A stretch of DNA of 64,000 bases from an uncultured Planctomycetaceae bacterium. GTDB lineage: Bacteria; Planctomycetota; Planctomycetia; Planctomycetales; Planctomycetaceae. The notes under the pieces were generated by a model that was given only the letters and a program-made list of their open reading frames with translations, was not told the origin of the DNA and did not search any database. Below, in pieces: positions 26,250-48,683 of the stretch; the stretch's first letter is position 1, and each line of letters opens with the position of its first letter. The translations under genes were made by a program, and so were the position numbers. The stretch is from the NCBI GenBank assembly GCA_963813715.1, contig CAWFAK010000017.1:96001-160000 (forward strand). Direction: 5' to 3'.

Positions 26250-26630
26250 GCTGCTGCCGCTCGCGGCACAGAGAGACGATTCGCCGAGCACGCGGCGAAC
26301 GGTCTGGTCCGCAGCCGGATCTTATCCCCGCCGAGCCGGGGGTTCAAAGAGACGCCACGCCGCCGGTCGCGACTCCGCCGGACAAGCCTTAGCCGTGCCG
26401 CCCGACCTGCGTCATTTCTCGTACGGCGGGGGGCTTTGGCGACGGCGCGGCTCCCCGCGGCCGACGGTCCCTCTCTCCCGGGGGTAGCTGCGGCCTTGCT
26501 GTTGACCAAATGAGCAAATTTGGCGAAACAGGCGACCGTTTCGAGCCTCCTTTGGCGTTTGCGAAACCGTTCGTCTGTCCGCTCCGTCGGGCTCCGCACC
26601 TGCGATCGCCCGAGGCCAATCCCGAGATCG

Positions 26631-30261: not shown

Positions 30262-31305
30262 CTAAGAGTGCGCTTTCACGGGAACCGCCGGTGGAGCGAA
30301 TGTTTTCAGCGTAATCATGCCCAGGTCGACCGGCCGCCGCTCGAGTTTTTCGCTGATCGGCGGCACCTCAAATGCGTAACCCATAACGAATAGCTTGCCG
30401 CCAATAAGAGGTACGCTTAGGTAGTATTTACCGGCCGGCACATCGTCGATGGAGAATTCTCCCCGATCGTCAACGGTGGCCAGAAAACTCAGCTCCCCCA
30501 ATCCGCCTCTTCGATCGCGGTGAATATCAATGTTAGCGTCACCCCACCGCGGCTCGGGCCCGCCTTCGGGCGCCTTCAGTCGTCCGATGACCGTGCGCCC
30601 TGCGTTGCCGAAGTCGATGCGGGTGGTCTTTCCCGCAAAAAAGTGGGCAGTCATCCGGCAGGTGGACGTCATTTCGCGGGGCTCGCTCGGTTTGCGATTG
30701 CGAATACTCCTAATGTAGCTCAGGCCGGGTAACACGTGCTCGAAGGCGTAGCGGCCGTGGGCGTCGGTTTTTTGTTGATTCGATGTTGTCAGGTGGGCGA
30801 CACCTTCGCCGATCCACAGGTTGGTGTGCCCTTCGATTCCCAGTTGCAGATTTGCACACGGTTGACGCGCGACCATGTACGTCCCTTCGGCTCTCGCCCA
30901 CGGCGACAGTGAGATCGTTTTCGGAGGAGACGTTCGCGTGCCCTTCACTTGGGCCCAGCCCGAAGGATGCACGGCGACCAACCAAAACTCGTCCGCGTCG
31001 GTCGTGAAATGCCAGTGACCGCTCTGGTCGGGCTTTGTCGGCAGCGGCAGGGGTGACTGGACGAGTTCGCCGTTAAAGACCGCGGCCGATTCACCGAGTT
31101 CGAGCAGAACGACCTTGGCATCGGTCACTGCCTTCCCGTCGCTGCCGACAACGGCAACCGTAACGTCCAACGATTTTCCGGACCCGGAAAAGACTCCGGT
31201 CGCATGCAATGCCTCAAAGCATAAGAGCACTCCGGCGACGACGATCACGATGCGGAATTTTGTCCTGCCCAACGATCGCCGAATTGAAATGTCCCGGTCG
31301 CTCAT
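30262..31305 (-). CDS. Secreted carboxypeptidase-regulatory-like domain protein, short form (array member C', 347 aa)
   Basis: Signal peptide; WLVAVHPSG, PWARAEGTY, TDAHGRYAFEHVLPG, FSIDDVPAGKY, RPVDLGMITL. Confidence 0.85.
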   Translation of the reverse strand: MSDRDISIRRSLGRTKFRIVIVVAGVLLCFEALHATGVFSGSGKSLDVTVAVVGSDGKAVTDAKVVLLELGESAAVFNGELVQSPLPLPTKPDQSGHWHFTTDADEFWLVAVHPSGWAQVKGTRTSPPKTISLSPWARAEGTYMVARQPCANLQLGIEGHTNLWIGEGVAHLTTSNQQKTDAHGRYAFEHVLPGLSYIRSIRNRKPSEPREMTSTCRMTAHFFAGKTTRIDFGNAGRTVIGRLKAPEGGPEPRWGDANIDIHRDRRGGLGELSFLATVDDRGEFSIDDVPAGKYYLSVPLIGGKLFVMGYAFEVPPISEKLERRPVDLGMITLKTFAPPAVPVKAHS

Positions 31306-31314
31306 GCGTCTCTT

Positions 31315-33774
31315 CTAACGCCGCACTTTCGCAGGCCCGGCGAACGGTTCGGGTGCCTTCAGCGTGAGCACCCCGAGGTCGACCGGGCGCTGCGACAGCT
31401 TTGCGTTGACCCGCGGCACGGTGAAATGGTGTGACTGCAGCAGCAGGGGCGGCGGGCCGGGAACAAAGGCGTGCAGGAGGTAGTCGCCGGGTGGGATCTC
31501 ATCGAGTGAGAAGTTGCCGTCGCTGTCGGGCTTGGCGGAAAATGTCGGGACGCTTTCGATATCAAACCAATCAATATCCGGCATGACCATAATCGAGGCC
31601 GAGCTCATCGAAACGTCGGATTTCGATTCGGGCGGCCGCCGTAACTGACCGATTACCGGCCGCCCCGCGCCGCCGACGTCGACGTGCATGATCTGGCCGG
31701 CGGGACAGTCGACCGGCACGGTGGCCGTGAAGGTGGTTTCGGACTTGCCCTTGCCGGTGACGCGTTTGACGATGATCCAATGCAGTCCGGAAATGGCACG
31801 ATCGAACGCGAATCGGCCGCTTGAATCCGTCGTCTGTGTATCTTGATCGCGGGGAGGAGCATTGCGCGGCGGCGCGTTCGAGGCGGACGAGGGGCTGGTG
31901 AGCAAAACTTCGACGTCGGACTGCGGTCGCCGGGCGACTTGGACCGTCCCTTCGACCCGCGCCCACGGCGTCAACTTGAGTTGCCGGGGATTGCCGCTCG
32001 GGAGCCCGCTTTGGTCGAGGTATCCCGAAGGATGCGTGATCACCAGCCGAAAGTTGTTGTTCTTCGCGGCAATCTGCACCCGGCCGGTTTGATCCGCGTC
32101 ATGAACGTCGCGCTGGTTTTCCAACTCGCCCCGGTTGAGAGAGACGACTTCGTTCGGGCCCAAAACCGTCACTTTTGCTCCCGCGGCAGGCCGGCCGGCG
32201 GGCGTGAGCACGGTCGCCGCGAAGTCTTTGGCTTTGAGCAACTCGAAATCGATCGTGGTGTTCCCCGCGTCCGATTTAATCTCGCGCGAGACGCTGTGCC
32301 AATATCCGTCGGCATCGATTCGCACTAGGTATGCGAGCTGCAGGTAGGTCTGACGAATCTGATAGGTGCCATCCGCGGCGGCCGGCTTGGTCTCGTTCGT
32401 AACGACTTGCCGCCCACTCGTGCGATATCCGCTCGTGAAGCGAAAGTTGTGGATCGGCTGTTTGGTATCGGCGTCGACGACTCGTCCCGTGATCACCAGC
32501 TCCGAGGGAACGCGAAACACATACTCGGCCTGCCGGGCTGTAACCCTCTGCCAGCCGAGCGTCATCCCGTTGGAGCGATGAATGCTGAGCAGCATTCTTT
32601 CCCCGGGCAGGTCGTGCCATTCCCAGGCTCCGTCCAAGTCCGTCTTCAGGGGGGCCTGATCGACTTCAAAGGCATCGAAGCCGAACTCGCCCCAAAGTGA
32701 GACTTGCGCTTTCGGCACAGGGCGCCCGGCCTCGTCGAGCACGCGCAGGCGGAGCGTCTTGCCCGGTTTGAGCTGAAAGTCAACCGACGCCTCGAGCGTG
32801 CCGAGCTCGATCTCTCGGAGCTGTGCGGCGCACCCCTTGGCCGCGGCCACGAGCTTGAGTTGCGGTGTGCAGCCTTCGAGCCGGTAGCTGCCGTTTTTGT
32901 CCGAGAAGGCGGTCCGCGTATCTTCGCCAACCCGCGCGCGGACGAGCGCTTTGGCGATCGGCTTGCCAGCCTCGTCGGTGACCTTGCCCATCACCGTGAC
33001 CCCTCCTTCGAGTACGATTTTTCCAGTCGGTTCGTGTCCCGGCTCGATCGCAAATTTCTCGCGACTCAAACTCGCCTTGTGCGCCGGGTATTTGGGCTCG
33101 CTGACCTCCGCGCTGACGAGCTGCATCGACTCCGGGACGCTCTCGAACTTCCAGACGCCTTTGCTGTTGGTCCACAGACGATCGGAATAGCCCAGCTGGC
33201 CCGTCCCCTCGAAACGAATCTGCAGCACGACCCGCGCGTTCGGCACGGGCTGGCCTTTGCCGTCGACCACGATGCCACCGATCGTCCAGGCCTTCTGCAG
33301 CTTGATCGTCAGCGGCTTGTCATAGCGAAAGATGTAAGTCGAGGAGTAGAAGGCGTAGCCGGGTTTGTGGACGCGGAAGTTGAGTGACTCCAAGTGCGAC
33401 GGCTGCTCGACAATGATGCGTCCGTCCGCGTCGGACTGCAGGTTGACTCCGTAGCGCGGCTTATTGAGCAACCTCCCTGCGCGGAGTCGAACTTTTTCCA
33501 ACGGCGGCTGCGTCGCCAAATTGACCTTCGCCCCCGCAATCGGCTGACCTTCCGGCCCGACGATCTGCAGCTCGAACACGGGGGGCGCGGACGCGGTCGT
33601 GTTGGCAGCCTTGTCAGTTGCCGCCGCGGATTTTGTCTGGCCGTCGTCGGCTGGCACCTGCGCCAGCAGCAGGGCGATGAGAATCGCCGCGCAAATCAAG
33701 GATGACACCGGCCGAGAAGCCGGTCGCCTCGACTTCTTCGACTCTCGCCGGAGCTCGGTCTGCTCGTAGTCCAT
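31315..33774 (-). CDS. Secreted carboxypeptidase-regulatory-like repeat protein, long form (array member B', 819 aa)
   Basis: Signal then ADDG; repeated G.V.D..GKP...A.V units; ends SQRPVDLGVLTL. Confidence 0.9.
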   Translation of the reverse strand: MDYEQTELRRESKKSRRPASRPVSSLICAAILIALLLAQVPADDGQTKSAAATDKAANTTASAPPVFELQIVGPEGQPIAGAKVNLATQPPLEKVRLRAGRLLNKPRYGVNLQSDADGRIIVEQPSHLESLNFRVHKPGYAFYSSTYIFRYDKPLTIKLQKAWTIGGIVVDGKGQPVPNARVVLQIRFEGTGQLGYSDRLWTNSKGVWKFESVPESMQLVSAEVSEPKYPAHKASLSREKFAIEPGHEPTGKIVLEGGVTVMGKVTDEAGKPIAKALVRARVGEDTRTAFSDKNGSYRLEGCTPQLKLVAAAKGCAAQLREIELGTLEASVDFQLKPGKTLRLRVLDEAGRPVPKAQVSLWGEFGFDAFEVDQAPLKTDLDGAWEWHDLPGERMLLSIHRSNGMTLGWQRVTARQAEYVFRVPSELVITGRVVDADTKQPIHNFRFTSGYRTSGRQVVTNETKPAAADGTYQIRQTYLQLAYLVRIDADGYWHSVSREIKSDAGNTTIDFELLKAKDFAATVLTPAGRPAAGAKVTVLGPNEVVSLNRGELENQRDVHDADQTGRVQIAAKNNNFRLVITHPSGYLDQSGLPSGNPRQLKLTPWARVEGTVQVARRPQSDVEVLLTSPSSASNAPPRNAPPRDQDTQTTDSSGRFAFDRAISGLHWIIVKRVTGKGKSETTFTATVPVDCPAGQIMHVDVGGAGRPVIGQLRRPPESKSDVSMSSASIMVMPDIDWFDIESVPTFSAKPDSDGNFSLDEIPPGDYLLHAFVPGPPPLLLQSHHFTVPRVNAKLSQRPVDLGVLTLKAPEPFAGPAKVRR

Positions 33775-33838
33775 AGCAGCTCCCTTTACGGAGCATTCAC
33801 TCGGGACTCAGTCTCAGGAGTCCTGAGTCCTGGGTTCA

Positions 33839-36299
33839 CTACTTACCGGGTTCTAAGGTCAACACTCCGACGTCGACCGGCCGCGCCGACAACTTCTCGT
33901 TCACGGCCATTACGGTAAAACGGTGTGGATTGAATTGAGATCGAACAGGCTTGAGAAACTGAAGGCTGAGCGAATACTCGCCCGGCGGGACGTCGTCGAT
34001 GCAGAAGTTGCCTTCGGGATCGACCGTTGCTTGGAAGTCCCGACCATTTCCTGTGGCTTGGACCAGAACGAAGTTCCAGCCAATCGTCGGCTTTTCACCG
34101 TTTGCCGCTCGCAGCTGTCCGGTCACGGGCCGCCCCGAGACTCCAAGATCGATGTGCGTGGTCTGGCCCGCGATGAACTTGACCGGCACCATCGTGCTCG
34201 ACGTCGTCTCGCTCGTTCCCGTGTCCACCATGATCAGGATGTACCGGCCGATCGATCCCTGGCCTGGAATCACGTGCTCGAAGGCGAAATGTCCGTTGGC
34301 GTCGGTTGTCTGGTTGTAGTCGAGGTAGATCGATGCGCCGTTTTGAGCGCGGAGTTGGGCGTTGGCCTGGTGATCGATCGAGATCTTGGCATTGGCCTGC
34401 GGTTTTCGCGCGACTCGATAGCTCCCTTCAACTCGGGCCCAGCGTGTCAGGGGGAGCGTCTTGGGGACCGACTTCAGTGAACACCACTGCTGGGCGTAAC
34501 CCGACGGATGAATGGCCACCAGCCAGAACTCCGACGTTTGCGGGCCGAAGTGAACGCGGCCGGCCTCGTCAGCGTCCTGGCTGGGGCAGTTCACCTGGCC
34601 CGGGGCAAAGTCGCCATTTTCGAGCATGACGTGCGCGCCGGCGTTGAGGAGCGCCACTTTCGCCCGCGAGGCGGGCGCTCCAGCGGCCGTCACCACGGTC
34701 GTGACGATGTCGTGGCCTTTTTCCAGCGCCAGATCGATCGTGACATTCCCCTCGTCGCTTTTGATCTGGCGTGAGACGCCCGGCAAATGGCCGTCCGCTT
34801 CGACCCGCACCTGGTAGGCGTGCTGCTCGCGGTTCTCGCGAAATTGGTAGTGGCCGTCGATCGCGTTAAAAGCGTGGTCGGTGTTCCAAAAGACATTTGC
34901 ATTCGACCATTGGATGCCCGGAATGACGCGAAACGACTTGATCGGCTGTTTCGTTTCGGCGTCGATCACTTTTCCCGAAATCACGAGAGCCGGCGGCACG
35001 CGGAACACCTGTTCTTTCTCGCCAGGGACAAGCGTCCGATTGCCGAGTTGCATGCCATCCGGGCGGCAGATGTCGGCTTGGATGGGGTCTACGGGCGCGC
35101 TCCTTCCATTCCCACAGTCCTTGCTCGTCCGTGAGCCGCGGCACGTTCTCGAACTCGAAGTACTGGATGCGACCATGCCATTGTTGAAAAAAAATCGTCG
35201 CCTTGGGGATCGGCTTGCCGTGTTCGTCGAGAACGCGGACGCGTAGCGTTGCGGCGGGCTGCATTTGAAAGTCGACGGGCGTATTGCGCGGACCGAGTTG
35301 CACCTCTTCTAGCGCTCGAGCGTGCCCCTTCGCCGCCACGACAATTCGGACCGGTCCTGGCTCGCAACCCTCCAGCCGATACACACCCGTCGCATCGGTG
35401 ACGGCCGAGTGCTCGTTGTTGCCGTATTTGGTCCAGACGTTGGCTTTGGCGATCGGTCTCCCGATTTCGTCGGTGACCCGACCCGTGATGATCAGGCCGC
35501 GATTCAGAAGAATTTTGGCGGTAGGCCGGTGTCCCCGCTCGACCTGGAAAAGTGCGCGCGACAGGGTCAGCCGCTGCGCCATGAAGGTGGGATCGTAGAT
35601 TTCGACGGGTACGGCATTGAGAGAGCTGGGGACGCTCTCGAAGGTCCACTCCCCTTTGTTGTTGGTCCGCACTCGGTCGCCGGTCCCCATTTGCCTCGAA
35701 TCGCCGGGGCGTTTGGTGAATTCGATCCGGAGTCCCACGCGCGCGTTGGGAATGGGTTTGCCGTCGCTGTCGACGACAACGCCCCCCACCGTCCACGCGG
35801 GTTCCAGCTTGATCGTGAGCGAGGCGGGGATCGGCTCGGAATTCGAGGTGAGAGACCATCCAGCCCAGTACGGGGCGTAGCCAGGAATCGTGACGTAGAG
35901 ATCGAAACGTTTCGGTTCGGCCGGCCGCTCGAAGGAAAGCCGGCCATCGGCATCCGCCGTGGCAGTCGCGGCGTAGCGCATTCGGCGGAGGAATTTTCCG
36001 CGGTGGATTTGTTTGGCCTGGATAACCGGCGTCGTCCGCAGTTCGATTTTGGCCTCGGGCACCGACTTCCCGTCGGGCCCGACGATCCGCAAGTCGAACA
36101 CGGGCGTCGCCGATTCGGGCGCGCTGGCAGGCTTGGATTTGACCCCTGCCGCATTTGGTTTGCCATCGTCGGCTTGCACCGCAGGCAGTGCCAGGACTGT
36201 GAGGAGTATCGCGGCGCAGGCGACGACACTACCTCTCGGATTGACCGCTTGCCGTGACGCAGCCGGTCGCGGCTGATGCTTGTTGAATTTATGGTTCAT
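33839..36299 (-). CDS. Long-form array member A'; frameshift near 35095
   Basis: ORFs 34866..36329 and 33839..35176; signal then QADDG; ends ARPVDVGVLTL. Confidence 0.88.
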
Positions 36300-36322
36300 G
36301 GACAACTCCAATCCGCGCGCTC

Positions 36323-37383
36323 TTACCATCGGCCGCCGACATTGAGTTGGAGCACGCCTAAGTCCACCGGCCTTTGCGACAGCTTTTCGTTAATCGTGGG
36401 CACCTCGAACGGATGATTCAGGATGTATTGTCGGCCTTTGTAGAAAAACACACTCAGAACGTGCTTGCCGGTGGGAACGTCATCAACGCAGAAGTTGCCG
36501 GCCGGATCTAAGGTCGCCGAAAAGTTGAGGTCTAGGGCGCCGGCCAGGGGGTGATCGGACGAGACTGCGACGAACGCGAATTTCCACGGAACTTCGTTCG
36601 TCGCACCCGTGGGACGCCGAAGCTGACCGATGACCGGCCGGCCTGTGGTGCCGAGGTCGACCTGCCTCGTTTGACCGGCCGTAAGACTGATTGGCACAAA
36701 ACCTCCAGAAGCGATTTCACTCGCGCCGTCGGTCGCCGAAAACGCGAGCGTGTGGCCAATCCGCAGCGCGCCTGGGACGACGCGTTCGAACACGAATCGC
36801 CCGTTCGTGTCGGTCCTCTGCTCTGATCGGAAGAAGGCTCGCGGCGGGGCGTTGAACGCGCCGAACACGGAGTTGGGATAAATCTCGATTTTGACATGGG
36901 GTCGCGGCTTCGCGCGACTCGGTATGTTCCTTCAACCCGCGCCCATGAGGTGAGTCGAATCGGCTGGGGAATGGAGACGGGGGAACATTTGACCTCTGCG
37001 AAGCCAGAGGAGTGCGTGACCACGAGAAGGCTGTTGCCGGTCACTAGCGGAAAATCAAAGCGGCCAGCGGCATCCGCCTGGCGTCGCTCGATCCCCGTCA
37101 ATTCGAAAATGTCGTCGCCATTGAGAATGTTGAGTTGCGCTCCTTGGATGGCCAGCGCAACTTTGGCCCGACCAGCCGGGTTGCCGTCCGGGGTGAGTAT
37201 TGTCGTGCCGCTCGCGGCGCTCTTGGAAGGACCGTTCTTCGGCGAGTTGGCAGGCGGATCTGCGTCGGCGTGCGGAGACGCCAGCGCGACGACACCGAAG
37301 AGTAACGCTGCCCTCGCGCTGCGCTGCGTCGCCGCGATCTGTCGCCACATGCCGGTAGGCAACCTTTTCTCCGAGAAGCTCAT
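36323..37383 (-). CDS. Short-form array member C; frameshift near 36905
   Basis: ORFs 36532..37383 and 36323..36868; only the C-terminal module; ends SQRPVDLGVLQL; ATG overlaps upstream TAA. Confidence 0.85.
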
Positions 37384-39995
37384 TATCGAGCGGCTCTCAC
37401 TCGCGCGGCTCGGGCTGCTTCAGGGCTCGACATCGTGAGCACACCCAGATCGACGGGCCGCTGCCACAACTTCCCCTTGGCTTTCGGCACGACGAAACGG
37501 TGCTGCTGCATTTGAAGATTCTGCCCCTGAGCGTTGGGGATGTAGGCGTTCAACCAGTAATTGCCTGGCGGAATGTCGTCGATGGCAAAGTTTCCGTCAC
37601 GGTCGGTCGTCGCATTGAACTGCAGCTCCGACTCGCCCCACATCTGGCCACCCTCCTGGCTGACCCAGATCTGAGCCGAACCCAATTGGTCGGCCTTAGC
37701 CTCCGGCGGCTTGCGCAATTGCCCGATGACCGGACGTCCCTCGGCTCCCAAGTTGACGTGCGTGGTCTCGCCGGGGGGACAGGTCGCGGTCATCGTCATG
37801 CTCGACGTCATCTGGCCGTCGCCCGAGCCGTTCGGCCGCGCCCAACTGATCTGCTGTCGGCCCGGCACGACCCGATCGAAGACGAACCGGCCCTGCGCAT
37901 CGGTTGCTCGCAGCGATTGCGCCATGATTTGCGGAGAATTCTGGCCGAAAAAATATTGGGCTCTAGAACCAGAGATCCAAGTGTTTGCCTTGGGCTGTCG
38001 AGCGACTTGAAACGTTCCCTCGATCCGCGCCCACGCCTTGAGCTTGACGATTCGCGGATTGGAACTGGGCATGCCCGGTAGCTCGGCGTAGCCAGTGGGG
38101 TGCGTGACCACGATCCAGCAGTTCGTGTTCTTCGCCTCCGCACGAAGCTTGCCGTCCTTGTCGGTTTCGTGCACGGCGGTCAGCCGTCGGCGCGGCTGGC
38201 GAAATTGACGGATCAGTCCGACGATAAGTCCCCCCATGTTACCGTTGCCGCCGCCCTGCTCCTGCAGTTCACCCCCAGAGACCACCACTTGCTCCCCGGG
38301 GCCGGGGATCGCGACTTTCGCTCGCGCGGCCGGGGCTCCGTCGGGCGTCAAGAACCGTTACCGCGACGGTTTTCCCTTTGAGCAGCTCGAAATCGATCGT
38401 GACCTTCGCCTCGTCACTTTTGATCTCGCGAGATACGGCCGGCATGTATCCGTCCGCTTCAACGCGCACCAGATTCGCGCCCGTATCGTCCGTCTTTTTT
38501 ATTTCGTAGGTGCTTCCGGTTGACGGCTTGCCGTTCTGATCCTCCCAGACGACCTGCTGCCCCATCCAGACGTATCCGGACGTCAGCCGAAAACCTTTGA
38601 TCGGCTGATGCGTTTCGGCGTCGACCACCTTGCCCGAGATGACGAGTGCCTTGGGGACGCGGAACACGTACTCTTCCTTGCGCGGCGAGAGGGCTCGATT
38701 GCTCAGGGTCATCCCGTTGGGACGACCGATGTTGGCCAGAACTTCTTCCGGGGGCGCCTCCTTCCATTCCCAGAGACCGTCGACGTCCGTCTGCCGCGGG
38801 GCATTGTCGACCTCGAAGAAATCGAACCCTGGCCGCCACTGCTGGAAATAGACTGTGGCTTTCGGAACCGGGTGCCCCTCTTCGTCGAGGACCCGCACGC
38901 GGATCGTGTTGCCCGGTTTCAGCCGAAAGTCAATTGGGCCCAGCCCCGGGCCGATTTCGATTTCTTGCAAGGCGGGGGCGCCGCCCCTTCGCCGATGCCA
39001 CGATCCGCGCTGCCAGGCCCGCAGCCCTCCAGGCGGTAGACCCCCTTTTTGTCGGTGAAAGCGCTGCGGGTGTCGTTGTTAGCCCTCGTCCGCACGAGCG
39101 CTTTGGCGATTGGCTTCCCGCCGTCATCGGTAACCGTGCCGGTGACGGAGAAGCCGCCCTTGAGGGTGATTTTTGCCGTCGGATCATGCCCGGGATTAAC
39201 CGCGAATTCCGCGCGGTCGAGCGTCGGGTTTTCCGGCACGAATTTCGGGTCGTTGATCTGGGCGGTGACGGCGTTCATCGATTCGGGCACGCTCTCGAAC
39301 TTCCAGATGCCCTTGCCGTTGGACCAGATGCGGTCCGAGAAGGTGATTTGTCCGCCGGTCATTTGAAGCTGAAGGATAATCCGCACGTTCGGGATGGGTT
39401 TTCCGTCGTTGTCGACGATGATGCCGCCGATCGTCCAGGCCCGCTGCAATCGGGCCGTCCGTGGAGCGAGCACGGCGTCGGCCTTGTTCTGGAAATTGAC
39501 CCAGTTCAGGTAGTAGCCATAACCGGGCTTACGAATTTGATAGTTGAGATAGTCCAAATGAGCCGGCCGCTCGAAGGCCACGCGCCCGTCCGCATCCGAC
39601 TTCACCACCAGGCTGTTGCGCAATTTCGTGACTAACGTCCCCGCGCGGAGCCGGACGTCCTTGGGCCGCGGGTTTATGAACAGACTGACCCTGGCATCCG
39701 GAACCGGCTTGTCATCGGGCCCAACGATCCGCAGCTCGAACGCCGGCGCTCGAGGCGCGGGCGCGGTGGTTGCCTGCGGAGCGGGTGCCTGGGGAGTGGG
39801 AGCCGGCGCGATCGTCTTGTGGTCGTCGGCTTTGGCTTTGCTCGCGGCGCCTGGGCCGTCATCGCCCGCGGCCAGGACGGGCATCGGCCGTCCGTCCGAC
39901 CCAAGCAGCGCGCCGAGCGCGAGCAGGAGCGTGACGACTCTCCAGCACTTCGATCGCACTCGCCCGCCCGGAGTCGTGATCGGTCGATGAGTCAT
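37383..39995 (-). CDS. Long-form array member B; frameshifts near 38985 and 38345
   Basis: ORFs 38919..39995, 38269..38970 and 37383..38351; ends WQRPVDLGVLTM. Confidence 0.87.
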
Positions 39996-40007
39996 GGCAT
40001 CCTCTGC

Positions 40008-42481
40008 TTACGGGTTGCGAGCGGGCACGGCCTTGGGCTCGTTCAGGTTGAGCACGCCCAGGTCGATCGGGCGTGTGCAAGCTTCTCATCAATCTTTGGG
40101 ACTTCCACGCGGCGGTTGAACCGGATTCCATTGTCGTTCGTAAAACGCACGCTCAGCGAGTAAAAGCCCGCCGGCACGTCGTCGATGCAGAAGTTCCCGT
40201 GAGGATCCGCCGTGGCGGCGAAGTGCAGGCCGTTGCCATCGACCTCGATGAGCGCGAAACTCCAGTGGACTTCTTCCTTCGACTCCGCCGGCGTCTGCAG
40301 TTGCCCGACCACCGGCCGACCGGAGGTTCCCAGGTCGACGTGCGTCGTGGTGCCCGCTGTCAGCTTGATCGGGACCATCGCGGACGAAGTCATCGCGTTC
40401 GACCCGGTGAAGGCCATGAGTTGAAGATTCCGGCCGATCAGACCATCACCCGGCGCCACGTGCTCGAACAGGAACCGGCCGCTCGCGGCGGTGGTTTGCC
40501 CATAGTTGAAGAGAATGCTGGGTGCATCGCCTGCCATCACATTGTGCGACCACTGGTTAATCCAGATTGGAACGTTGGCCTGCAGCTTGCGAGCGACGCG
40601 AAACGTCCCTTCGACGCGGGCCCACGCGGTCAAGCGAATCTCCTTCGGCAGGTGCGCAGCCTGGCACTTCAGCACGGCGAAACCGGCCGGATGCGTGACG
40701 ACGAGCCAGAAATCCTTGACTTGCGGTGTGAAGTGAAAGCGCCCCTGCGGATCGGCCATCTCGCGGAGGGAATAAGTTTGGTTCTCGTCGATGTGGCCGT
40801 TGGTGACCATGATCTGCGCACCGTGGACGCCCAGGGCGAGTTTGGCACCGGCGGCCGGTGCGCCGTCGGGACTGTCGACCGTCCCGACGAAGTCTTCCCC
40901 GCGCTTCATGTCGAAATCGACGGTGACGTTCCCTGAGTCAGTCGGAATGTCGCGGGAATCGGCGGGGAAGTAGCCGTCCGCTTCGATCCGCACGCCGAAC
41001 AATCCCTGCGCATACGTTTCTCGGAGGCGGTATTGGCCGTCGGCCGCAGTAAAGCCCTCGAACGTGTTCCGAGAGGTCCGGTCTCCTGGGACGACGTGAA
41101 ACGTTTTGAGTGGTTGCTTCGTTTTCGCGTCGACAACTTTGCCTGAGATCACGAGCGCCGGAGGCACACGAAATGTGTACTCCTCCTTCCCATCGCCCAA
41201 CGGCTGATAGCTCAGCTGCATGCCGCCGGGGCGACAGATATCGGCGGCAAACGTGTCGACCGGCGCTTCGTGCCATTCCCACACGCCGTCTTTGTTCGCG
41301 TATTGAGTCACCGAGTCGAACTCGAAGTATTGAATCGGTCCCCGCCATCTTTGGAAGAAGATGCGTGCGCGGGGGAGCGGATGCCCCTTCTCGTCCAGCA
41401 CGCGCACGCGGACGGTCCGGCCGGGCTGCAGGATAAAGTCGACGTTGGTGCCGCGGGCGATCGCTACATGTTTCATTTCGAGTGCGCGGCCTTTGGCGGA
41501 GACGACGATGCGGGCCTCGCCCGGCTCCGCTCCGGTGACCCGGTATGTGCCGTCGGCACTCGTGACGTCTTTGCGGACGTTGTTGCCGAACTTCGTCCTT
41601 ACGACGGCGCCCGCGATCGGCTTGCCGGTCTCGTCGGTCACTCTGCCCGTGACGATCAGCCCCGCTTGCAGGGTCACTCGGGCGGCTGGCTTGTCACCCC
41701 GCTTGATGCCGAACTTGGTGCGCGGCAAATTCGTCCGCAGGGTCATGAAGTCGTGCTTGCTGATTTCGACCTGGACCGCCTGCACCGAATCGGGGGCGCA
41801 GTCGAAGCTCCAGCGGCCGTTGGAATCGGTGCGGAGGTGAGTGCCAGTCACGAGCTGTCGCGTTTTGCCCGGACCTTTCGCGTATTCAATGACGGGCCAA
41901 ATCTCCGCCCCGACGATCGGTTGCCCGTCGCCATCGACGACAACGCTGCCGACCGTCCACGCGCTCTGGAGCTTGATGGTCAACGCCGCCGGAATTGGCT
42001 CGGAGTTGACATCCGGAACCCAACCGGTCCAGTAAGGCGCGTACCCGGGCATTTCCAACAGGAAGTCCAAGTACTTCAATCCGGCCGGCCGAGTGAACAC
42101 CAGCCGCCCATCCGCATCGGCCGTGATGCCCACTCCATAAGTCGCTCGCCGCTGGTATTTGCCGACGCGCACCTGGTCCCCTTGAAGCCGGGGCGTGCTC
42201 CGTACGTCGACCTTCGCGTGAGGAACGGGCTTCCCATCCGGCCCGACGACGTGCACCTCGAAGGTCTTTGAATCAGCAGCGGGCGCGGTGTTTTGGGCCG
42301 CGGGCGGCGCCGCCGTTGAAGCCGTCGACTTATTCTCAGGCTTGCCATCGTCGGCGTGTAGGAGTGACATCCCCAACAACGCCAAAAGGAGGCTCGCGCA
42401 AACTGAGCGATAAGGTCGTTCAATTAACCCGGAGTTCGACCGCTTCGACACTCGTTGGCGCCCAATTTTGTTGTCGTCCAT
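40008..42481 (-). CDS. Long-form array member A; frameshift near 40073
   Basis: ORF 40043..42481; restoring one base gives EKLAxRPIDLGVLNLNEPKAVPARNP, TAA at 40008. Confidence 0.88.
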
Positions 42482-42493
42482 GGCACCCTCACT

Positions 42494-44947
42494 TTAACGC
42501 GAGTCGCCGGTTTTCAGTGTCAGCACCCCCAGGTCGACCGGACGTTGCGACAGCCTTTTGTCGATCTGGGGGACACTGAAGCGGTGCTTGAGTGGGATTC
42601 CCTTGAAGGTCTGTACCTGAACGCTCAATTCGTAGTCGCCGGACGGAACCGCATCGATGGAAAAATTCCCTTCTGCGTCCAGCGCGGCGACGAAACTCGG
42701 CTTCAATTCGGCGAGGCGAGGATCCCGGCTATCAACTCTCAGGAGAACGCGGTTCCACGGAAATGTCTGCTTCGTCTCAGGTGGCCAGCGGAGCTGGCCG
42801 ATGACGGGCCGTCCGGAACCTCCCAGGTCAAAATGCGTGGTTTTGCCAGGCTCGAGTCGGACGGGCATCGAGCCCGTTGAGGCCATTCCGTGGGTCCCGT
42901 TCTCGTCGAACAGCTCAATCTGAGGTGCGATCGTTCCCTGCCCCGGCAGCAATCGGTCGAAGACGTAGCGCCCGTCGGCATCGGTTGTCTCAGAGAATGA
43001 CCAGATAATCCGCGGCCTTTTGGGATCGAACCGACCCCTCGGGCGTGACAGTGATAACGAGGCCGCCGGTTGCGGTTTTCCCACTACCAGGTACGTTCCC
43101 TCCAACCGGGCCCAGGGCGTCAGCTGAATGTTGCCGGGATCCGACTGGGGAGAACACTTCGCCTCCGCATAACCGGACGAGTGTGTGATCACGAGCCAAT
43201 AGTCGGCCTTTTCGCGCGGGAAACGAAAGTGGCCGGCTTCGTCGGTGATCCTCCGTGCCACTGTTTGGGAATCGCCCTGGTCGCCGTTCTCGATTCTGAA
43301 TATCGCGCCGGCGGTCAAGAGCGCCATTTTCGCATTGCGGGCCGGCTTGCCGTCGGCCGTCAGAACGGTGCCGACGATGTCTTCGCCCTTCGTGAGTGCA
43401 AAATCGGCTGTCGCATCTCCGTGGTTCTGCTTGATTGGGTCGGATTCGGCAGGCAAGTAGCCGCCGGCCTCGACGCGCACGCGGAAGGCCGGTTGCCCGT
43501 TTGTGTGCCGAAGCCAATAGGTGCCACCGGTTGCCTCAAAGCCGTCGGCCCAGAGCCATCGCGACGCAGACATGCTTCCTTGGGGCACGACACGAAACCG
43601 CTCAATCGGTCGCTTCGTTTGGGCGTCGACGACTTTGCCTGAAACGCGCAGGTCGGGCTGTTGTCGCAACACGAACTCCTGTTCGCGGGCTCCCAAATTG
43701 TTCCCTCCATTGAGCCAGCTGCCATCGGAAAGCCTGACCCCCACGACGCAACCGGACGCCGGCGCATCGTTCCATTCCCAAGCGCCGTCGTGATCCGTGA
43801 GTTGATTCGTGTCGCTCGTGTCGTAATCGGCGAAAGGGTACACAAATACCTTCGCACTCGGGATGGGCTTTCCCTGCACGTCGAGCACGCGGAGCCGGAA
43901 CTTTCCGCCCCTCGTCAACTGAAAATCGACGGGCGCGTTTTCGGCCGCCCTGGAAACCGGCTGGGAGGCAGGTGCGAACCCCTTCGCCCGCGCCGTAAAC
44001 ATCACCGGCTCGGGGGGGCAACCAACCATCCGGTAAAAACCGTCGGCATCCGTGACGGCCTTAAGGAAAGTATTTCGATAGAAGGTTAGAACGACGGCCC
44101 CGACGATGGGCTCGCCCGATTTATTGGTGACGCGGCCGGTCACGGTCAGCCCGGGGCCGAGGATGATCTTGCCAGCGGACTTCTTGTTCGTCGCGATGCC
44201 GAACTCCGCCGCACTTGAGCCTCGCGCCTGCGGCATGAAAAGGGGATGGGCGATTTGAACGGTAACTGGATCACTCGAAAGCGGGACGCAGTCAAAGTGC
44301 CATTTCCCATCGGCATCGCTCTTTAGCCGCTCGTCCCGGAGCCATTGCAAGGCTTCCGGGCAGCCGTAGGCGAAATCGACGGGCGGCAAGATCGTCGCGC
44401 CGGCGATGGGCTTCCCGTTGACATCGACGAACGTGCCTCCCATCGACCAACCGGGCTCGAGCTTCACCGTCAACTTCGCTTGGATTGGCTCGGAGCGCAA
44501 AGAGGGCGACCAGGATGACCAATAGCGCGCGTATCCCGGAGCTTCGATATAGAGGGCCAGTCGCTTCCACTCGACCTGCGGCTTCAAAGCAATTCGGCCC
44601 TCGCCGTCGGCTTGGAGCGTCGCTCGAGAGCTCGAACTCCGCACGAGCTTGCCGCGTTGCAGTTGCCCGATCTGAACAAGCGGTTCGCTGAAGACCTCGA
44701 TCTTGACGTCGGCGACCGGCTTACCGTCAGGCCCGACGACGTGCAAATCAAAGGGGGCGGTTGCCGACGGGGGCGCAGCAGCGGACTTTGAGTTTGCGGC
44801 ACCGGGCTGGCCGTCGTCGCCAACCAATAATCCGCGCGTCATGAACGTGATGAGCACTCCCAAGCAAACTGCGGCGCGATCCGGATGGTGCGGCCGCGCG
44901 CGGCATCGTGTCGTCACATTTCGGCCGCCGATCTGGTCGTTGCCCAT
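42494..44947 (-). CDS. Long-form array member D' (817 aa)
   Basis: Intact ORF; signal then GDDG; ends SQRPVDLGVLTL. Confidence 0.9.
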   Translation of the reverse strand: MGNDQIGGRNVTTRCRARPHHPDRAAVCLGVLITFMTRGLLVGDDGQPGAANSKSAAAPPSATAPFDLHVVGPDGKPVADVKIEVFSEPLVQIGQLQRGKLVRSSSSRATLQADGEGRIALKPQVEWKRLALYIEAPGYARYWSSWSPSLRSEPIQAKLTVKLEPGWSMGGTFVDVNGKPIAGATILPPVDFAYGCPEALQWLRDERLKSDADGKWHFDCVPLSSDPVTVQIAHPLFMPQARGSSAAEFGIATNKKSAGKIILGPGLTVTGRVTNKSGEPIVGAVVLTFYRNTFLKAVTDADGFYRMVGCPPEPVMFTARAKGFAPASQPVSRAAENAPVDFQLTRGGKFRLRVLDVQGKPIPSAKVFVYPFADYDTSDTNQLTDHDGAWEWNDAPASGCVVGVRLSDGSWLNGGNNLGAREQEFVLRQQPDLRVSGKVVDAQTKRPIERFRVVPQGSMSASRWLWADGFEATGGTYWLRHTNGQPAFRVRVEAGGYLPAESDPIKQNHGDATADFALTKGEDIVGTVLTADGKPARNAKMALLTAGAIFRIENGDQGDSQTVARRITDEAGHFRFPREKADYWLVITHSSGYAEAKCSPQSDPGNIQLTPWARLEGTYLVVGKPQPAASLSLSRPRGRFDPKRPRIIWSFSETTDADGRYVFDRLLPGQGTIAPQIELFDENGTHGMASTGSMPVRLEPGKTTHFDLGGSGRPVIGQLRWPPETKQTFPWNRVLLRVDSRDPRLAELKPSFVAALDAEGNFSIDAVPSGDYELSVQVQTFKGIPLKHRFSVPQIDKRLSQRPVDLGVLTLKTGDSR

Positions 44948-44959
44948 CGGATGCTTCCC

Positions 44960-47365
44960 TTACGGTGCTTTCAATGTCAGCACGCCCAAATCGACGGGTC
45001 TTTGCCATAGTTTTTTGTCGATCGCGGGCACGTTGAAGTGGTGCTCCAGCTGGGGCGCTGCGATCCAGGCGACCCGAACCGTCAGGACATACTTGCCGGC
45101 CGGAACGCCGTCGATGCAGAAGTTGCCGTCAGGGGCCAACGTGGCACCGAAACTGGGACTCGATTCCCTGAGTTGCGGGTTGTGGGCCTGGACAAGGATG
45201 ACAGCGTGGCTCCACGGACCTTTCTCCTTCGAATCGGGAGCTCGCCGCAACTGGCCGATCACCGGCCGGCCGGAGGCCCCCAGGTCGAAGTGCACCGTCT
45301 CTCCGGGCTGAAACTGAAGGGGCTGCTCGCCGTACGATGCCATCCCCAACTCCAGGACCTCCTCCATGAGCAACAACGGCCGCCCGATGGTTCCCGCTCC
45401 CGGCATGAGCCGATCGAACTCGTACCGTCCTCGGGAGTCGGTTGTCTGGGAGAACGACGAGAAGATGGACGGCGCGTTCTTGCCGCCCAAGTCATTGCTG
45501 TGGCGCATGACCGAAAGCGAAATATACGGCTGCGGCTTTCCTGCGACGTAGTAGGTCCCCTCGAGCCTCGACCAGGCAGTCAGGCGAATGGGCTTGGGGT
45601 CCGAGTCAGGCGAACATTCGACCTTCGCGTAGCCGCCTCGATGCGTGATCACAAGCCAATACTTCGCTTTCTCGCGCGGGAAACGAAAGCGACCCGCGTC
45701 GTCGGTCAGGCGTTGCTGCGCACCGAATGGGTGATCGGGAAGTTCGCCATTGGTGATGGTGATATGGGATCCGACATGTCCCATCGCCACTTTTGCGTGG
45801 GCGGCAGGACGGCCGTCGGCGGTCAGAAACAATCCCGGCGATGTCTTCGGCGGGTGTCAGCGCGAAATCGACTGTCACGTTGCCCTCGTCCTTCTTGATC
45901 CGGCCCGACTCAGCCGGCAGATAGCCGTCGGCTTCGATCCGGATTTGATTGACAGCCGTCTGGTTCTTGGCACGAAACCAGTAGCTGCCGCCACTCGCGA
46001 GGAAGTTCTCGTTCCAGACCCACGAGGACGCTCCCGGGACGACTCGAAATTTCTTGATCGGCTGCTTGGTCCGGGCGTCGATCACTCTGCCCGAGAAGGT
46101 GACGGCGGGTGGCGCCGAAAAAGGATCTCCCTTGGGCCGGCGACAAGCGGCTGACTGTTGAGCCCTCTGCCATCGGGAAGATTGATCCACGCGCTGAATT
46201 GGTCCGCAGGCGCCTGGCTCCATGCCCACGCTCCCTGGCTGTCGGTGTATTCGCTGGGCCGTTCCAACTCGTAATCGGCGAATGGCCAGAGAAGGAGCCG
46301 CGCCTTTGGAATCGGCTTCCCGTGCTCGTCAAGCAGCCGGAGGCGGACCGTCCCTCCGCGTTTCATCTGAAAGTCGACGGGCTTCATCCCGGATTGAATC
46401 CAAACCGGACGCCAGGCCGGCGCGAGTCCCTTGGCCGCAGCCAGCACCGTCGTCCCCAACGGCTTACAGCCAACCAGGCGGTAAGCGCCCTCCGCATCCG
46501 TGACGGTTTTGCGCTTGCAAAGCTGCAAGTTGGCTTGGACCAGTGCGCCGGCGACGGGCTCGCCCTCCGCATCGGTGACCTTGCCCACGACTGTCAGGCC
46601 AGGGTCCAGGACAATCTTGGCGGAAGGCGTTTGTCCCCGCCTGACGTCAAAATCCGCGCGATTGAACGTAACGGACTTCGGCATGAAATTCGGATGGTCG
46701 ACCTCGACTGTGACGGGATCCCGCCAAATCGGCACGCAATCAAAGTGCCATTTTCCTGCGGCGTCGCTCTGCGGCCGCTTGTCGAGGCAGCGTTCCGTGG
46801 CCTCCTGATCGAATGGCAAATCGACTGGGGGCAGAATCCTCGCGCCGGCGATCGGTTTCCCCTGATCATCGACGATCGTTCCGCCGACGGACCAGCCGGG
46901 TTCGAGTTTGGCGATGTATTCCGCGGGGATCGGCTCGGAGCGAACTTGGGGGCGCCACGACGCACAATATCGGGCGTAACCCGGAGCTTCGATAAAAAGA
47001 TCGAGACGGTTCCACTGGGCCGGCCGCACAAGAACGATTCGGCCTTCGCCATCAGACTCGAGCGTCTCCCCGTAGCTTGATTCGCTCACGAATTTGCCGC
47101 GCCGGACCTCAGCCGCGTGAATGGCCGGCTCGCTCAGGAAGTCGACTTGAACGCGCGGAATCGCTTTCCCGTCGGAAGCGACGATGCGGAGGTCGAACGT
47201 CGAGGCGACCTGCGTGGGCGCGACCGCGGCTCGGGAGGTCGGCGGCTCAGCGGCCACCTCGCCCGTCGCGGCTTGCAAGACGGCCCCGGCCACGACAGCG
47301 CAGCGCATCGCCGGCGATAACAAGAAACATGCTGCCGTGTTTGTGCACCAAGGCGCGAAGTGCAT
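44960..47365 (-). CDS. Long-form array member D; frameshifts near 46115 and 45830
   Basis: ORFs 46082..47374, 45606..46229 and 44960..45832; ends WQRPVDLGVLTL. Confidence 0.87.
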
Positions 47366-47589
47366 GGCAAACAACCCGCTGAGATATCTAATGCTGAGGT
47401 ATCTAATTCTGCCGACCGGCCGAGTTGATTTTCAATTTCTTTCTCGCAAATGCGTTTTCGAGCTGAAGATAGTCTGTGTGCCGCTGACAGGATTGGACGG
47501 CCTGAAGGCCGAGATTCGTTTAACGCTCCGCCGTCGTGATCCACGTGCGCGGCAACGCGCCGCCAATGCCCGTCGCGGCGATCTTTTTG

Positions 47590-47839
47590 CTCTTCTGAGC
47601 GTCGTCGGCGGTTTGTCGCGGGGCCGCGGGGGCGACTGCCGCCGCCTTCTTCGTGGAGATGCGCGGCCCGTCGTCGGCCTGCAGGCTCGACAAGCAGCTC
47701 GCAACGGCGACAAGGACGAGGACGCGCGTGCGTCCGGCGATCCGCGTCCATCATGCGAACTCCGAGACTTGGGTCGAGCGGCCACCGTCACGATACCCAA
47801 ATCGAGCGGGCGCTGCGACAAGTTTTCGTCGATCGCCGG
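47590..47839 (-). pseudogene. Relics of two further array paralogues (a C-terminus followed by a signal-peptide fragment)
   Basis: PAIDENLSQRPLDLGIVTV (47839 to about 47783), then ATG 47754 and a shifted-frame VLVLVAVASCLSSLQADDGP. Confidence 0.75.
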
Positions 47840-47859
47840 CCGGCTGAATTGGCAGCGTC

Positions 47860-47907
47860 CGGGAACCCGATGCGATCGAAGAGCCCTCGCTCACGCTTCG
47901 GGTTGGT
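47860..47907. repeat. REP-like element homologous to 3623-3669
   Basis: cgggaacccgatgcgatcgaagagccctcgctcacgcttcgggttggt vs cgggaatcgacgcgatcgagcagccctcgctgacgcttcgggttagt. Confidence 0.75.
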
Positions 47908-47930
47908 GGGTTGACGCCCGGCCGCGCGAG

Positions 47931-48146
47931 CTAGCGCTGGCCGTATGGCGGCTGCTGGCCTGGGTGCGCGTCCGGGTCGATGCCCATGCCGATTTTGGCC
48001 ATCCGCTCGCGGTGATTGATGATCGATTTCACGATCACGGTGAGCGAGCCGAACACGATCGCCGAAATCGGAATCAAGAGCGCAAACACGCCCGCATCGA
48101 TGACGATGGGCGAATCGGCAATCAGCGAGAGGCAGGTAGAGGACAT
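47931..48146 (-). CDS. Small single-TM protein, paralogue 3 (DUF6249-like HRERM motif)
   Basis: TM then KSIINHRERMAKIGMGIDPD; 71 aa. Confidence 0.85.
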   Translation of the reverse strand: MSSTCLSLIADSPIVIDAGVFALLIPISAIVFGSLTVIVKSIINHRERMAKIGMGIDPDAHPGQQPPYGQR

Positions 48147-48188
48147 CGCGGTCTCGCGAACGGGGTCGCCGTTATCCAGAGGCGAAGA

Positions 48189-48422
48189 TCAATACCCGGC
48201 GGGCGCTTGCGGATGATTGGGATCGTACTTGTGGGGGTCGTAGTCCGGATCGATGCCCATGCCGATCTTGGCCATCCGCTCCCGGTGCTTGATGACCGAT
48301 TTCACAATCATGACGACCGATCCGCAAACGATCGCCACGACGGGGATGCACAGGGCGATCAGGCCCGCATCCGGCGGAGGCCCATTGGAAGTTGCCAGGG
48401 CGGACATCAGGTGGAATGCCAT
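48189..48422 (-). CDS. Small single-TM protein, paralogue 2
   Basis: TM then KSVIKHRERMAKIGMGIDPDYDP; GAGGAG RBS; 77 aa. Confidence 0.87.
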   Translation of the reverse strand: MAFHLMSALATSNGPPPDAGLIALCIPVVAIVCGSVVMIVKSVIKHRERMAKIGMGIDPDYDPHKYDPNHPQAPAGY

Positions 48423-48431
48423 GTTTGCTCC

Positions 48432-48683
48432 TCAGCCACCCACTTGCGAAGTCGGGTCGTGTGGGCGTCGGTACGGCCCGGCACTCGCGTGTGGGTTATT
48501 CGGGTCGACGTCGGCTGGGTCGTAGTCGGGGTCGATGCCCATGCCGATCTTGGCCATCCGCTCGCGATGCTTGATGACCGACTTCACGATCACGATCACC
48601 ATCACGATTGCCGCGAGCGGGATCAGCACCCAGATCCCCTCATCCGATGCCAGGACCGGGACCGCCAACGAATCGAAAGACAT
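48432..48683 (-). CDS. Small single-TM protein, paralogue 1
   Basis: MSFDSLAV..., TM then KSVIKHRERMAKIGMGIDPDYDP; GAGGA RBS; 83 aa. Confidence 0.85.
   Translation of the reverse strand: MSFDSLAVPVLASDEGIWVLIPLAAIVMVIVIVKSVIKHRERMAKIGMGIDPDYDPADVDPNNPHASAGPYRRPHDPTSQVGG

What the first reader, a model, noticed from the sequence alone, without database searches (positions are those of the whole stretch)
30262..47365. 17-kb operon of eight secreted beta-sandwich repeat paralogues: candidate unknown surface or envelope assembly
Seen: eight co-oriented genes with gaps from a 1-nt overlap to about 65 nt. Each has an N-terminal signal-like peptide (five followed by A/G-DDG), a body of G.V.D..G.P...A.V repeats, shared blocks (W..V.HP.G, W.R.EGT..V, GRPVIGQLR, GNF.IDDVP.G.Y) and a near-invariant C-terminal RP(V/I)D(L/V)G(V/M)(L/I)xL/M. 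Six are about 810-870 aa; two are about 350 aa and contain only the C-terminal module. Known: such carboxypeptidase-regulatory-like (prealbumin-fold) repeats in planctomycetes are often fused to BlaR1/M56, ECF sigma or redoxin domains. No such domain or catalytic motif is visible here. Inference: these could be non-enzymatic subunits of a heteromeric fibre, adhesin or envelope scaffold, with the conserved terminal strand acting as a polymerisation or sorting element.
Basis: partly seen in the sequence, partly recalled or inferred. Interest (0 to 1): 0.85.

Follow-up and report, generated by a model that had tools for sequence, protein, structure and literature searches.

The report
Headless receptor ectodomains amplified into array
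Eight side-by-side genes in a soil planctomycete encode copies of the outer part of a BlaR-type membrane receptor without its signalling protease, and they likely act as a varied set of exported, non-enzymatic binding proteins rather than as subunits of a strand-swapped fibre.

Summary
In detail: eight co-oriented paralogues, six long and two short. All frame breaks disappear in independent short-read assemblies, and orthologues are under purifying selection. The body is not an orphan. It is a string of eight transthyretin/CnaB-like sandwiches (short genes keep domains 6-8), collinear with the extracytoplasmic tip of planctomycete BlaI-BlaR1(M56) receptors: 49 of 77 related loci are M56 fusions, 46 of them directly behind blaI. 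The headless genes of this genus form one clade whose sister is a congener's M56 fusion, and several signal peptides still resemble the receptor's last membrane helix. So the array most likely arose by head loss, then tandem duplication, truncation and recombination. The terminal strand folds inside domain 8 in both models and also ends the receptors, so strand-swap polymerisation is not supported. But the loop before it (KLxQRP) is array-specific and conserved at protein level, which I cannot explain. Most likely function: exported, monomeric, non-catalytic binding proteins with diversified loops; ligand unknown, expression not shown. New variant of a known but uncharacterised kind; moderate interest.

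The parts
44960..47365 (-). Gene A, long paralogue (801 aa; signal-like peptide + domains 1-8); two assembly indels
42494..44947 (-). Gene B, long paralogue (817 aa); open, with a compensating indel pair in the assembly
40008..42481 (-). Gene C, long paralogue (824 aa); the copy closest to M56-fused receptors (60% mean identity in domain 4); one assembly indel near the 3' end
37383..39995 (-). Gene D, long paralogue (870 aa); three assembly indels
36323..37383 (-). Gene E, short paralogue (353 aa; signal-like peptide + domains 6-8); one assembly indel; overlaps the stop of D by 1 nt
33839..36329 (-). Gene F, long paralogue (829 aa, or 819 from the ATG at 36299); one assembly indel
33775..33838 (-). 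64-nt F-G gap with an 8-bp hairpin, kept in G002; possible mRNA stability or processing element (inferred)
   Evidence: (z -2.36; 3 of 200 shuffles as stable)
31315..33774 (-). Gene G, long paralogue (819 aa, open); modelled: eight complete transthyretin/CnaB-like domains
30262..31305 (-). Gene H, short paralogue (347 aa, open); modelled: three-domain unit, domains 6-8
47520..47754 (-). Relic: 5' end (signal-like peptide and linker) of a short paralogue whose body survives in G002
47755..47845 (-). Relic: 3' end of a lost paralogue carrying the terminal motif

Best explanation
The array encodes eight copies of the extracytoplasmic module of planctomycete BlaR1/M56 receptors without the protease head; they likely arose by head loss and tandem duplication, and likely work as Sec-exported, monomeric, non-catalytic binding proteins. 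Steps. (1) Shown: same module, collinear, as in blaI-M56 fusions; no M56 domain, sigma domain or blaI at this locus. (2) Strongly inferred: an ancestor in this genus lost blaI and the M56 domain and kept the last membrane helix, which now serves as signal peptide. (3) Shown by comparison: the copies were duplicated, cut from the N-terminal side, recombined and lost; copy number at this site is 2 to 8. (4) Predicted: each chain folds alone into eight (or three) complete beta-sandwiches; domains 6-8 form a rigid unit, are kept in every complete gene seen and are the likely working end. (5) Inferred, untested: after cleavage at an AxA-type site the proteins sit in the periplasm or at the surface and bind an envelope or external ligand without passing a signal; loss of the receptor's conserved loops, a variable domain 7 and a shift to net positive charge would widen the range of partners, perhaps anionic polymers.
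For: Homology: 33-38% identity over 90-98% of G with M56 and ECF fusions; C is 44-47% identical to eight M56 fusions; 30 of 32 longer homologues carry PF05569. Context: of 77 loci, 49 M56, 2 ECF, 24 headless, 2 truncated; blaI (PF03965) lies directly upstream in 46 of 49 M56 loci and 0 of 24 headless ones. Trees: 17 headless N-modules of the genus form one clade (SH-aLRT 90) whose sister is the M56 fusion of congener G001 (98); 28 C-modules including all eight window genes form a clade (100 and 99); headless forms recur elsewhere (at least 6-8 forced changes). Signal peptide: a profile of the receptors' last helix scores C, F and G in the top 2% of 357 other hydrophobic N-termini of the genome (all eight, p=0.006), and one G009 array gene above all controls; L108 still carries the tail of the M56 domain in frame. 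Structure: G pLDDT 86, pTM 0.66; H pLDDT 85, pTM 0.79; domain 8 aligns over 91 of 95 residues to a CnaB2 domain (Z 8.5, rmsd 2.8) and 89 of 111 to EMC7 (Z 7.7, rmsd 2.3). Selection: dN/dS 0.19-0.37 for five orthologue pairs with G002. Divergence: receptor loop motifs drop from 32/38 to 2/25 and 25/38 to 6/25; the long insert in domain 8 from 31/38 to 0/25; net charge positive in 25/25 versus 6/38; mosaic paralogues, with domain 7 the least conserved domain in the five rows that match one window gene best.
Against: No ligand, location or expression is shown. Signal-peptide cleavage rests on patterns, not on SignalP; an uncleaved anchor is possible. A, B, D and H (and E, top 10% only) do not stand out from the controls in the helix profile. 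Trees are quick searches with SH-aLRT only and a midpoint root; the whole-genus clade had support 78; G001 is a fragmented, 65%-complete bin. No positive selection was seen (dN/dS below 1 in every domain). The 25 'array' rows are 6 window genes plus 19 database proteins picked by similarity, without known context, and are not independent. Tight operon-like spacing and the array-specific conserved KLxQRP loop (21/25 versus 0/38; 70% amino-acid identity with ordinary synonymous divergence, 0.41 versus 0.38) fit a shared partner or an assembly as well.
Confidence: 0.55

Rival explanations
1. The proteins are envelope struts or a lattice: long rigid rods that dock through domains 6-8 and the KLxQRP loop on a common envelope partner or on each other without strand exchange (NOMO-like spacer, chaperone or S-layer-like role).
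For: Operon-like spacing; array-specific conserved loop and often basic tails; fold shared with NOMO2 (profile E 1.1e-6; Z 7.2) and with S-layer and adhesin stalk domains; in a distant paralogue in this genome the module carries a C-terminal redoxin, as a stalk would.
Against: Copy number and composition vary freely between close relatives (2-8 at this site), unlike a fixed-stoichiometry structure; no membrane anchor other than the N-terminal helix; shared fold shows no function.
Confidence: 0.17
2. The N-terminal helix is not cut; the proteins are membrane-anchored decoys or co-receptors that tune BlaIR or ECF receptors encoded elsewhere in the genome.
For: The helix resembles a receptor membrane helix; the genome keeps 20 blaI-like hits and 23 M56-bearing frames, two loci with a distant version of the same module; S. 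aureus BlaR1 is a dimer (PMC9834060, passages).
Against: Uncharged spans in the array genes are short (median 14 versus 20 in receptors) and 7 of 8 have an AxA-type site. No close M56-fused partner was found in G000 with P0030 as query (genome 83% complete). The loops conserved in receptors are the ones the array has lost.
Confidence: 0.15
3. One reading: subunits of a heteromeric fibre polymerised by donation of the terminal strand to the next subunit.
For: The terminal segment is the most conserved part among the eight; CnaB-like folds occur in pilins; a monomer model cannot show a strand that swings out after processing.
Against: All domains are complete in the models, so no acceptor groove is apparent; the same strand ends single-copy receptors (61 of 63 modules end within 20 aa of the stop) and is followed by another module in polyproteins L077, L087 and P0155; no LPxTG, pilin motif or correctly placed lipobox; the genes flanking the array are metabolic or small membrane proteins.
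Confidence: 0.08
4. A decaying pile of duplicated pseudogenes with no current function.
For: Breaks in five of eight genes as assembled; two relics upstream; loss of receptor motifs.
Against: Every break is absent from short-read contigs of other runs; a housekeeping neighbour is broken the same way; dN/dS 0.19-0.37; G has a 98%-identical intact cluster of 22 database sequences and H a 99%-identical one of 27.
Confidence: 0.03

Closest known systems
Non-canonical BlaI-BlaR (M56) systems (CenIR preprint 10.64898/2026.04.08.717257; S. aureus BlaR1, PMC9834060)
   Same: The module is the C-terminal extracytoplasmic part of planctomycete blaI-M56 fusions (for example 'Regulatory protein BlaR1' of Gimesia maris). 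The preprint reports 254 M56 architectures, only about 6% with a penicillin-binding domain, and lists a CarbopepD_reg_2 architecture.
   Different: The window genes lack the M56 domain, HExxH and blaI, so they cannot signal alone; no penicillin-binding domain; eight diverged tandem copies.
Planctomycete ECF sigma factors with long C-terminal extensions (ECF57-type; PMC7671368, PMC7826278)
   Same: The same module is fused to sigma2/sigma4 heads in P0043, L092 and L093; PMC7671368 proposes that duplicated sigma heads capture existing genes as extensions.
   Different: No sigma domain here. In the trees the ECF fusions sit among M56 fusions, not at the base of the array.
Carboxypeptidase regulatory-like / transthyretin-like domain proteins (PF13620; CnaB stalks; NOMO, EMC7)
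   Same: Fold of every domain (best Z 12.5 to duck carboxypeptidase D, rmsd 1.5 over 78 residues).
   Different: A fixed eight-domain order with long inserted loops and hairpins; no solved structure matched more than two or three domains in register.
Sortase, chaperone-usher and type V pili
   Same: Beta-sandwich subunits in a gene cluster; conserved terminal strand.
   Different: No sorting signal, lipobox, incomplete domain or adjacent assembly gene was found (definitions recalled).

Membership tests
BlaI-BlaR (M56) system | M56 metalloprotease domain with HExxH | tested here: not met
   No PF05569 hit; no HExxH/D in the eight read-through proteins; no M56 profile hit at this locus
BlaI-BlaR (M56) system | Adjacent blaI repressor gene | tested here: not met
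   20 blaI-like hits in the genome, none near C17:126-144 kb
BlaI-BlaR (M56) system | Extracytoplasmic module homologous to that of M56 fusions | tested here: met
   Collinear over domains 1-8, 33-47% identity
ECF sigma with C-terminal extension | sigma2 and sigma4 domains | tested here: not met
   No sigma hit in the array frames
PF13620 CarboxypepD_reg-like proteins | Transthyretin-like repeats above the Pfam cut-off | tested here: met
   B 154, G 147, C 144 bits against 32.3; H alone scores 30.0, just under; folds
Sortase-assembled pili | C-terminal LPxTG plus membrane anchor; pilin motif | tested here: not met
   No LPxTG or YPK pattern; no second hydrophobic stretch; definition recalled
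Sortase-assembled pili | Intramolecular isopeptide Lys-Asn/Asp triads | tested here: inconclusive
Type V pili (Bacteroidota) | Lipoprotein precursor (lipobox Cys after the hydrophobic stretch) | tested here: not met
   One pattern match, in F, at the start of the hydrophobic stretch; none in the other seven; definition recalled
Type V or chaperone-usher pili | Incomplete sandwich with a groove for a donor strand | tested here: inconclusive
   Models show complete domains with the last strand in place; a processed form cannot be excluded by monomer models
NOMO / BOS-type luminal rods | Long string of prealbumin-like domains with a C-terminal membrane anchor | tested here: not met
   Fold similar but no C-terminal hydrophobic helix
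Intradiol dioxygenases (automatic database names of homologues) | Full catalytic domain | tested here: not met
   TIGR02422 20 bits against cut-off 296; TIGR02439 15-18 against 392. PF00775 passes its whole-protein cut-off in B, G and two fragments but with no single passing stretch; iron ligands not checked one by one
Sec / signal peptidase I substrates | Cleavable signal peptide | tested here: inconclusive
   7 of 8 match an AxA-type pattern of my own; SignalP not available

The most novel reading that the evidence does not exclude
The module is a secreted effector in its own right, not just a sensor: in planctomycete blaI-M56 cassettes the last membrane helix doubles as a cleavable signal peptide, so the switch induces and sheds its own payload (blaI is the only conserved neighbour). 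This genus freed the payload from the switch and built a recombining repertoire whose new KLxQRP loop docks every member on one common envelope partner, giving a mixed periplasmic or surface coat.
Probability: 0.2. Interest if true: 0.75.

Novelty: new variant of a known kind. Interest (0 to 1): 0.42.

Why it matters
Most BlaR-like receptors sense unknown signals. Here the outer module of one widespread planctomycete receptor subfamily (profile hits in 2,603 clusters at E up to 1e-30, a count that includes distant relatives) survives without its head many times over and, in one soil genus, has radiated into a gene array under purifying selection. That argues that the module does something useful without signalling, and it supplies small soluble versions (347-353 aa) that are easy to express and to screen for ligands. 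If the receptor's last helix is a cleavable signal peptide, the usual reading of these proteins as sensor-transducers would need revision.

Tried and rejected
Complex prediction of two copies of domains 6-8 of G gave no answer (score 0.00); it is not evidence either way. Expression: two runs labelled RNA cover the array, but they also cover intergenic DNA and hold contigs of 29-40 kb, so I make no expression claim. Promoter and terminator scans gave no more than shuffles (3 against 2.7; 9 against 20.8). DNA-level homogenisation of the 3' ends was tested and rejected. Positive selection was not seen in any domain. A cleavage-site pattern after the receptors' last helix was found in 26 of 35 against 19.4 +/- 2.7 in shuffles (maximum 27 in 1000): weak. 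No conserved neighbour other than blaI turned up in the 77 loci; most other top clusters looked like alternative-frame ORFs, and a few real families recurred in 4-13 loci at varying positions. Foldseek hits to multi-domain proteins had TM-scores of 0.05-0.23; no catalytic fold was listed, which does not exclude one. The atlas search only returned PF13620 clusters. The short-protein search with alignment A4 returned only 7 close relatives of H. The three small upstream genes matched nothing in Pfam or NCBIfam and are separated from the array by 3-14 kb of other genes in G003, G009 and G010, so I left them out of the system. Rows dropped: loci duplicating congener stretches before trees; two contig-truncated loci wrongly labelled headless, and two long branches, were removed; L085, counted as headless, begins with the first helices of an M56 protein; one congener row was read in a wrong frame. 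Eight literature searches found no paper on this module or array; the library lacks most subscription papers, and no supplements were read. Cluster membership and source names of six proteins could not be looked up.
Full report
Setting. The window is G000:C17:96001-160000 of a 7.49-Mb, 18-contig, 83%-complete genome. Its close relatives are titled Planctomycetaceae, and near-identical DNA occurs in soil and rhizosphere runs. The array sits between an aldehyde dehydrogenase and a nitronate monooxygenase gene (Pfam) on one side and three small membrane-protein genes plus transketolase- and phosphoketolase-like genes (these two names recalled from the sequence) on the other.

Observation. Eight co-oriented genes A-H are present. 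Five are broken as assembled, as is the transketolase-like neighbour. Short-read contigs from four other runs show one indel at each break, and a compensating pair inside B. With these, all eight frames are open: 801, 817, 824, 870, 353, 829/819, 819 and 347 aa, gaps of -7 to 64 nt, 31-51% pairwise identity, one N-terminal hydrophobic stretch each, and the terminal motif in 8 of 8. The motif occurs 10 times in the genome's six frames, 9 of them here. The ninth belongs to a relic 3' end upstream of A, next to a relic 5' end whose body survives in G002.

Anatomy. Pfam gives only transthyretin-like families. The model of G (pLDDT 86, pTM 0.66) has eight beta-sandwiches, about residues 63-159, 160-256, 257-336, 337-423, 424-514, 515-602, 603-702 and 703-806, after a disordered linker. 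H (pLDDT 85, pTM 0.79) is domains 6-8. Domains match carboxypeptidase D's transthyretin domain, the SusC N-terminal extension, CnaB domains and EMC7. Domain 8 aligns over 91 of the 95 residues of a CnaB2 domain, across the terminal strand, so that strand is the domain's own last strand in the model. No LPxTG, pilin motif, correctly placed lipobox or C-terminal anchor is present.

What the module is. G is 33-38% identical over 90-98% of its length to proteins with an N-terminal M56 or ECF sigma head, and C is 44-47% identical to eight M56 fusions. Of 77 loci from species-representative genomes, nearly all titled Planctomycetota, 49 are M56 fusions, 2 ECF fusions, 24 headless and 2 truncated; blaI lies directly upstream of 46 of the 49 and of none of the 24 (3 of which had no room). 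No other neighbour is conserved. In 61 of 63 complete cases the module ends within 20 residues of the stop, even with up to about 1,900 residues of other domains between it and the protease. It can repeat within one chain: three whole modules in L077, three C-modules in L087. This scan used motifs from an alignment of C and fusions and kept the best 80 matches, so the proportions are not a census. The CenIR preprint (10.64898/2026.04.08.717257; first fifth and passages read) reports that M56 proteins have 254 architectures, about 6% with a penicillin-binding domain and about 96% near blaI. PMC7671368 (passages and part 1 of section 12) argues that planctomycete sigma heads capture existing genes as extensions. 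PMC7826278 (passages) gives 5.3 ECF57 copies per planctomycete genome. PMC9834060 (passages) shows BlaR1 as a dimer. None describes this module.

Origin of the array. All 11 other genomes of the genus have a match. Multi-gene headless arrays were seen only in this genus: 7 genes in G002, 3 in G003, 2 in G009, at least 2 in G007 and several in G010 at the same site, and about eight members at a second site in each of G004 and G005. In the N-module tree the 17 headless genus rows form a clade (SH-aLRT 90) with congener G001's M56 fusion as sister (98); in the C-module trees the eight window genes fall in a 28-row genus clade (100, 99). Headless singletons are scattered among fusions, needing at least 6-8 changes. 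The N-termini of C, F and G score in the top 2% of 357 controls against a profile of the receptors' last helix; A, B, D and H do not stand out. L108 keeps the end of the M56 domain in frame before its signal-like peptide. Head loss with the last helix turned signal peptide is the simplest reading; the trees are quick searches with a midpoint root.

Evolution since. Orthologues in G002 give dN/dS 0.19-0.37, against 0.04-0.15 for four metabolic neighbours and 0.29 for a fifth neighbour: purifying but looser. Related proteins are mosaics, for example G-like domains 1-2 on a D-like body, or a G-like signal peptide on a D-like body; domain 7 is the least conserved in the closest pairs. A strain in run X3 lacks A and B at this site. 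Shortened members keep domains 6-8 or 5-8. Compared with fusions, array-type proteins have lost conserved loops in domains 4, 6 and 7 and a roughly 40-residue insert in domain 8, have become net basic, and have gained a conserved KLxQRP loop before the last strand. That segment is 70% identical among the eight with ordinary synonymous divergence, so the constraint is on the protein.

How it most likely works. Shown: exported-type N-terminus, no signalling head, no catalytic domain detected, complete folds in models, purifying selection, turnover and recombination. Inferred: Sec export and cleavage; action as monomers; binding through domains 6-8; paralogues differing in partner. I put this at 0.55, against a strut or coat (0.17), anchored decoys (0.15), a strand-exchange fibre (0.08) and decay (0.03). 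The evolutionary origin alone I would put near 0.9. An earlier AI note on another genome (e1-9926582) describes a BlaR1-WD40 sensor followed by protease-less copies; I did not check it, but it suggests that the pattern is not limited to this module.

Verdict. Real, intact and explained in origin: a genus-specific radiation of a headless BlaR-type ectodomain. It is not a member of any pilus class tested and not a BlaIR system, though derived from one. New variant of a known kind; interest 0.42.

Noticed in passing
window 47930-48683 (-): Three tandem paralogous genes of 71-83 aa, each a hydrophobic stretch followed by a near-invariant HRERMAKIGMGIDP block; the only three in the genome; two or three copies in G002, G003 and G009, one seen in G010; no Pfam or NCBIfam hit (resembles DUF6249 from memory).
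   Followed up: partly
window 47882-47905: Short repeat with 11-12 copies in the genome and many loose contig ends in all four runs laid; looks like a REP-type element at the 5' edge of the array.
   Followed up: partly
G000:C8:569604-577486 (+) and G000:C17:183898-187902 (+): Two blaI-M56 loci with a distant (24-30%) version of the same eight-domain module; at C8 two consecutive modules each run on into a redoxin-type domain (CxxC seen in the second).
   Followed up: partly
G000, whole genome: 20 blaI-like hits and 23 M56-bearing frames with very different outer domains; the last helix is often followed by an AxA-like site.
   Followed up: partly
L077:754-9825 and L087:7763-14500: Single-chain equivalents of the array: M56 plus three whole modules (3,014 aa), and M56 plus one N-module and three C-modules.
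   Followed up: partly
L056:13527-16031 and L068:12368-14737: Gimesia loci with blaI, an M56 fusion and one headless copy downstream: a possible early stage of array formation.
   Followed up: no
L085:9722-12401: A module whose frame starts with the first helices of an M56 protein but lacks the catalytic part.
   Followed up: no
L028-L029 (G005) and L026-L027 (G004): A second array of the same family at a different chromosomal site, next to a kinase-like gene, with members cut to domains 5-8 or 6-8 and without the KLxQRP loop.
   Followed up: partly
window 40073 and L021:17226: The same one-base frame break near the end of gene C occurs in both this assembly and G002, yet short-read contigs of two runs lack it: probably a systematic long-read error.
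   Followed up: yes
window 26510-27466 (+): 318-aa gene with one hydrophobic stretch and a long predicted coiled region, kept near the array in G002, G003 and G009; no family above cut-off.
   Followed up: no
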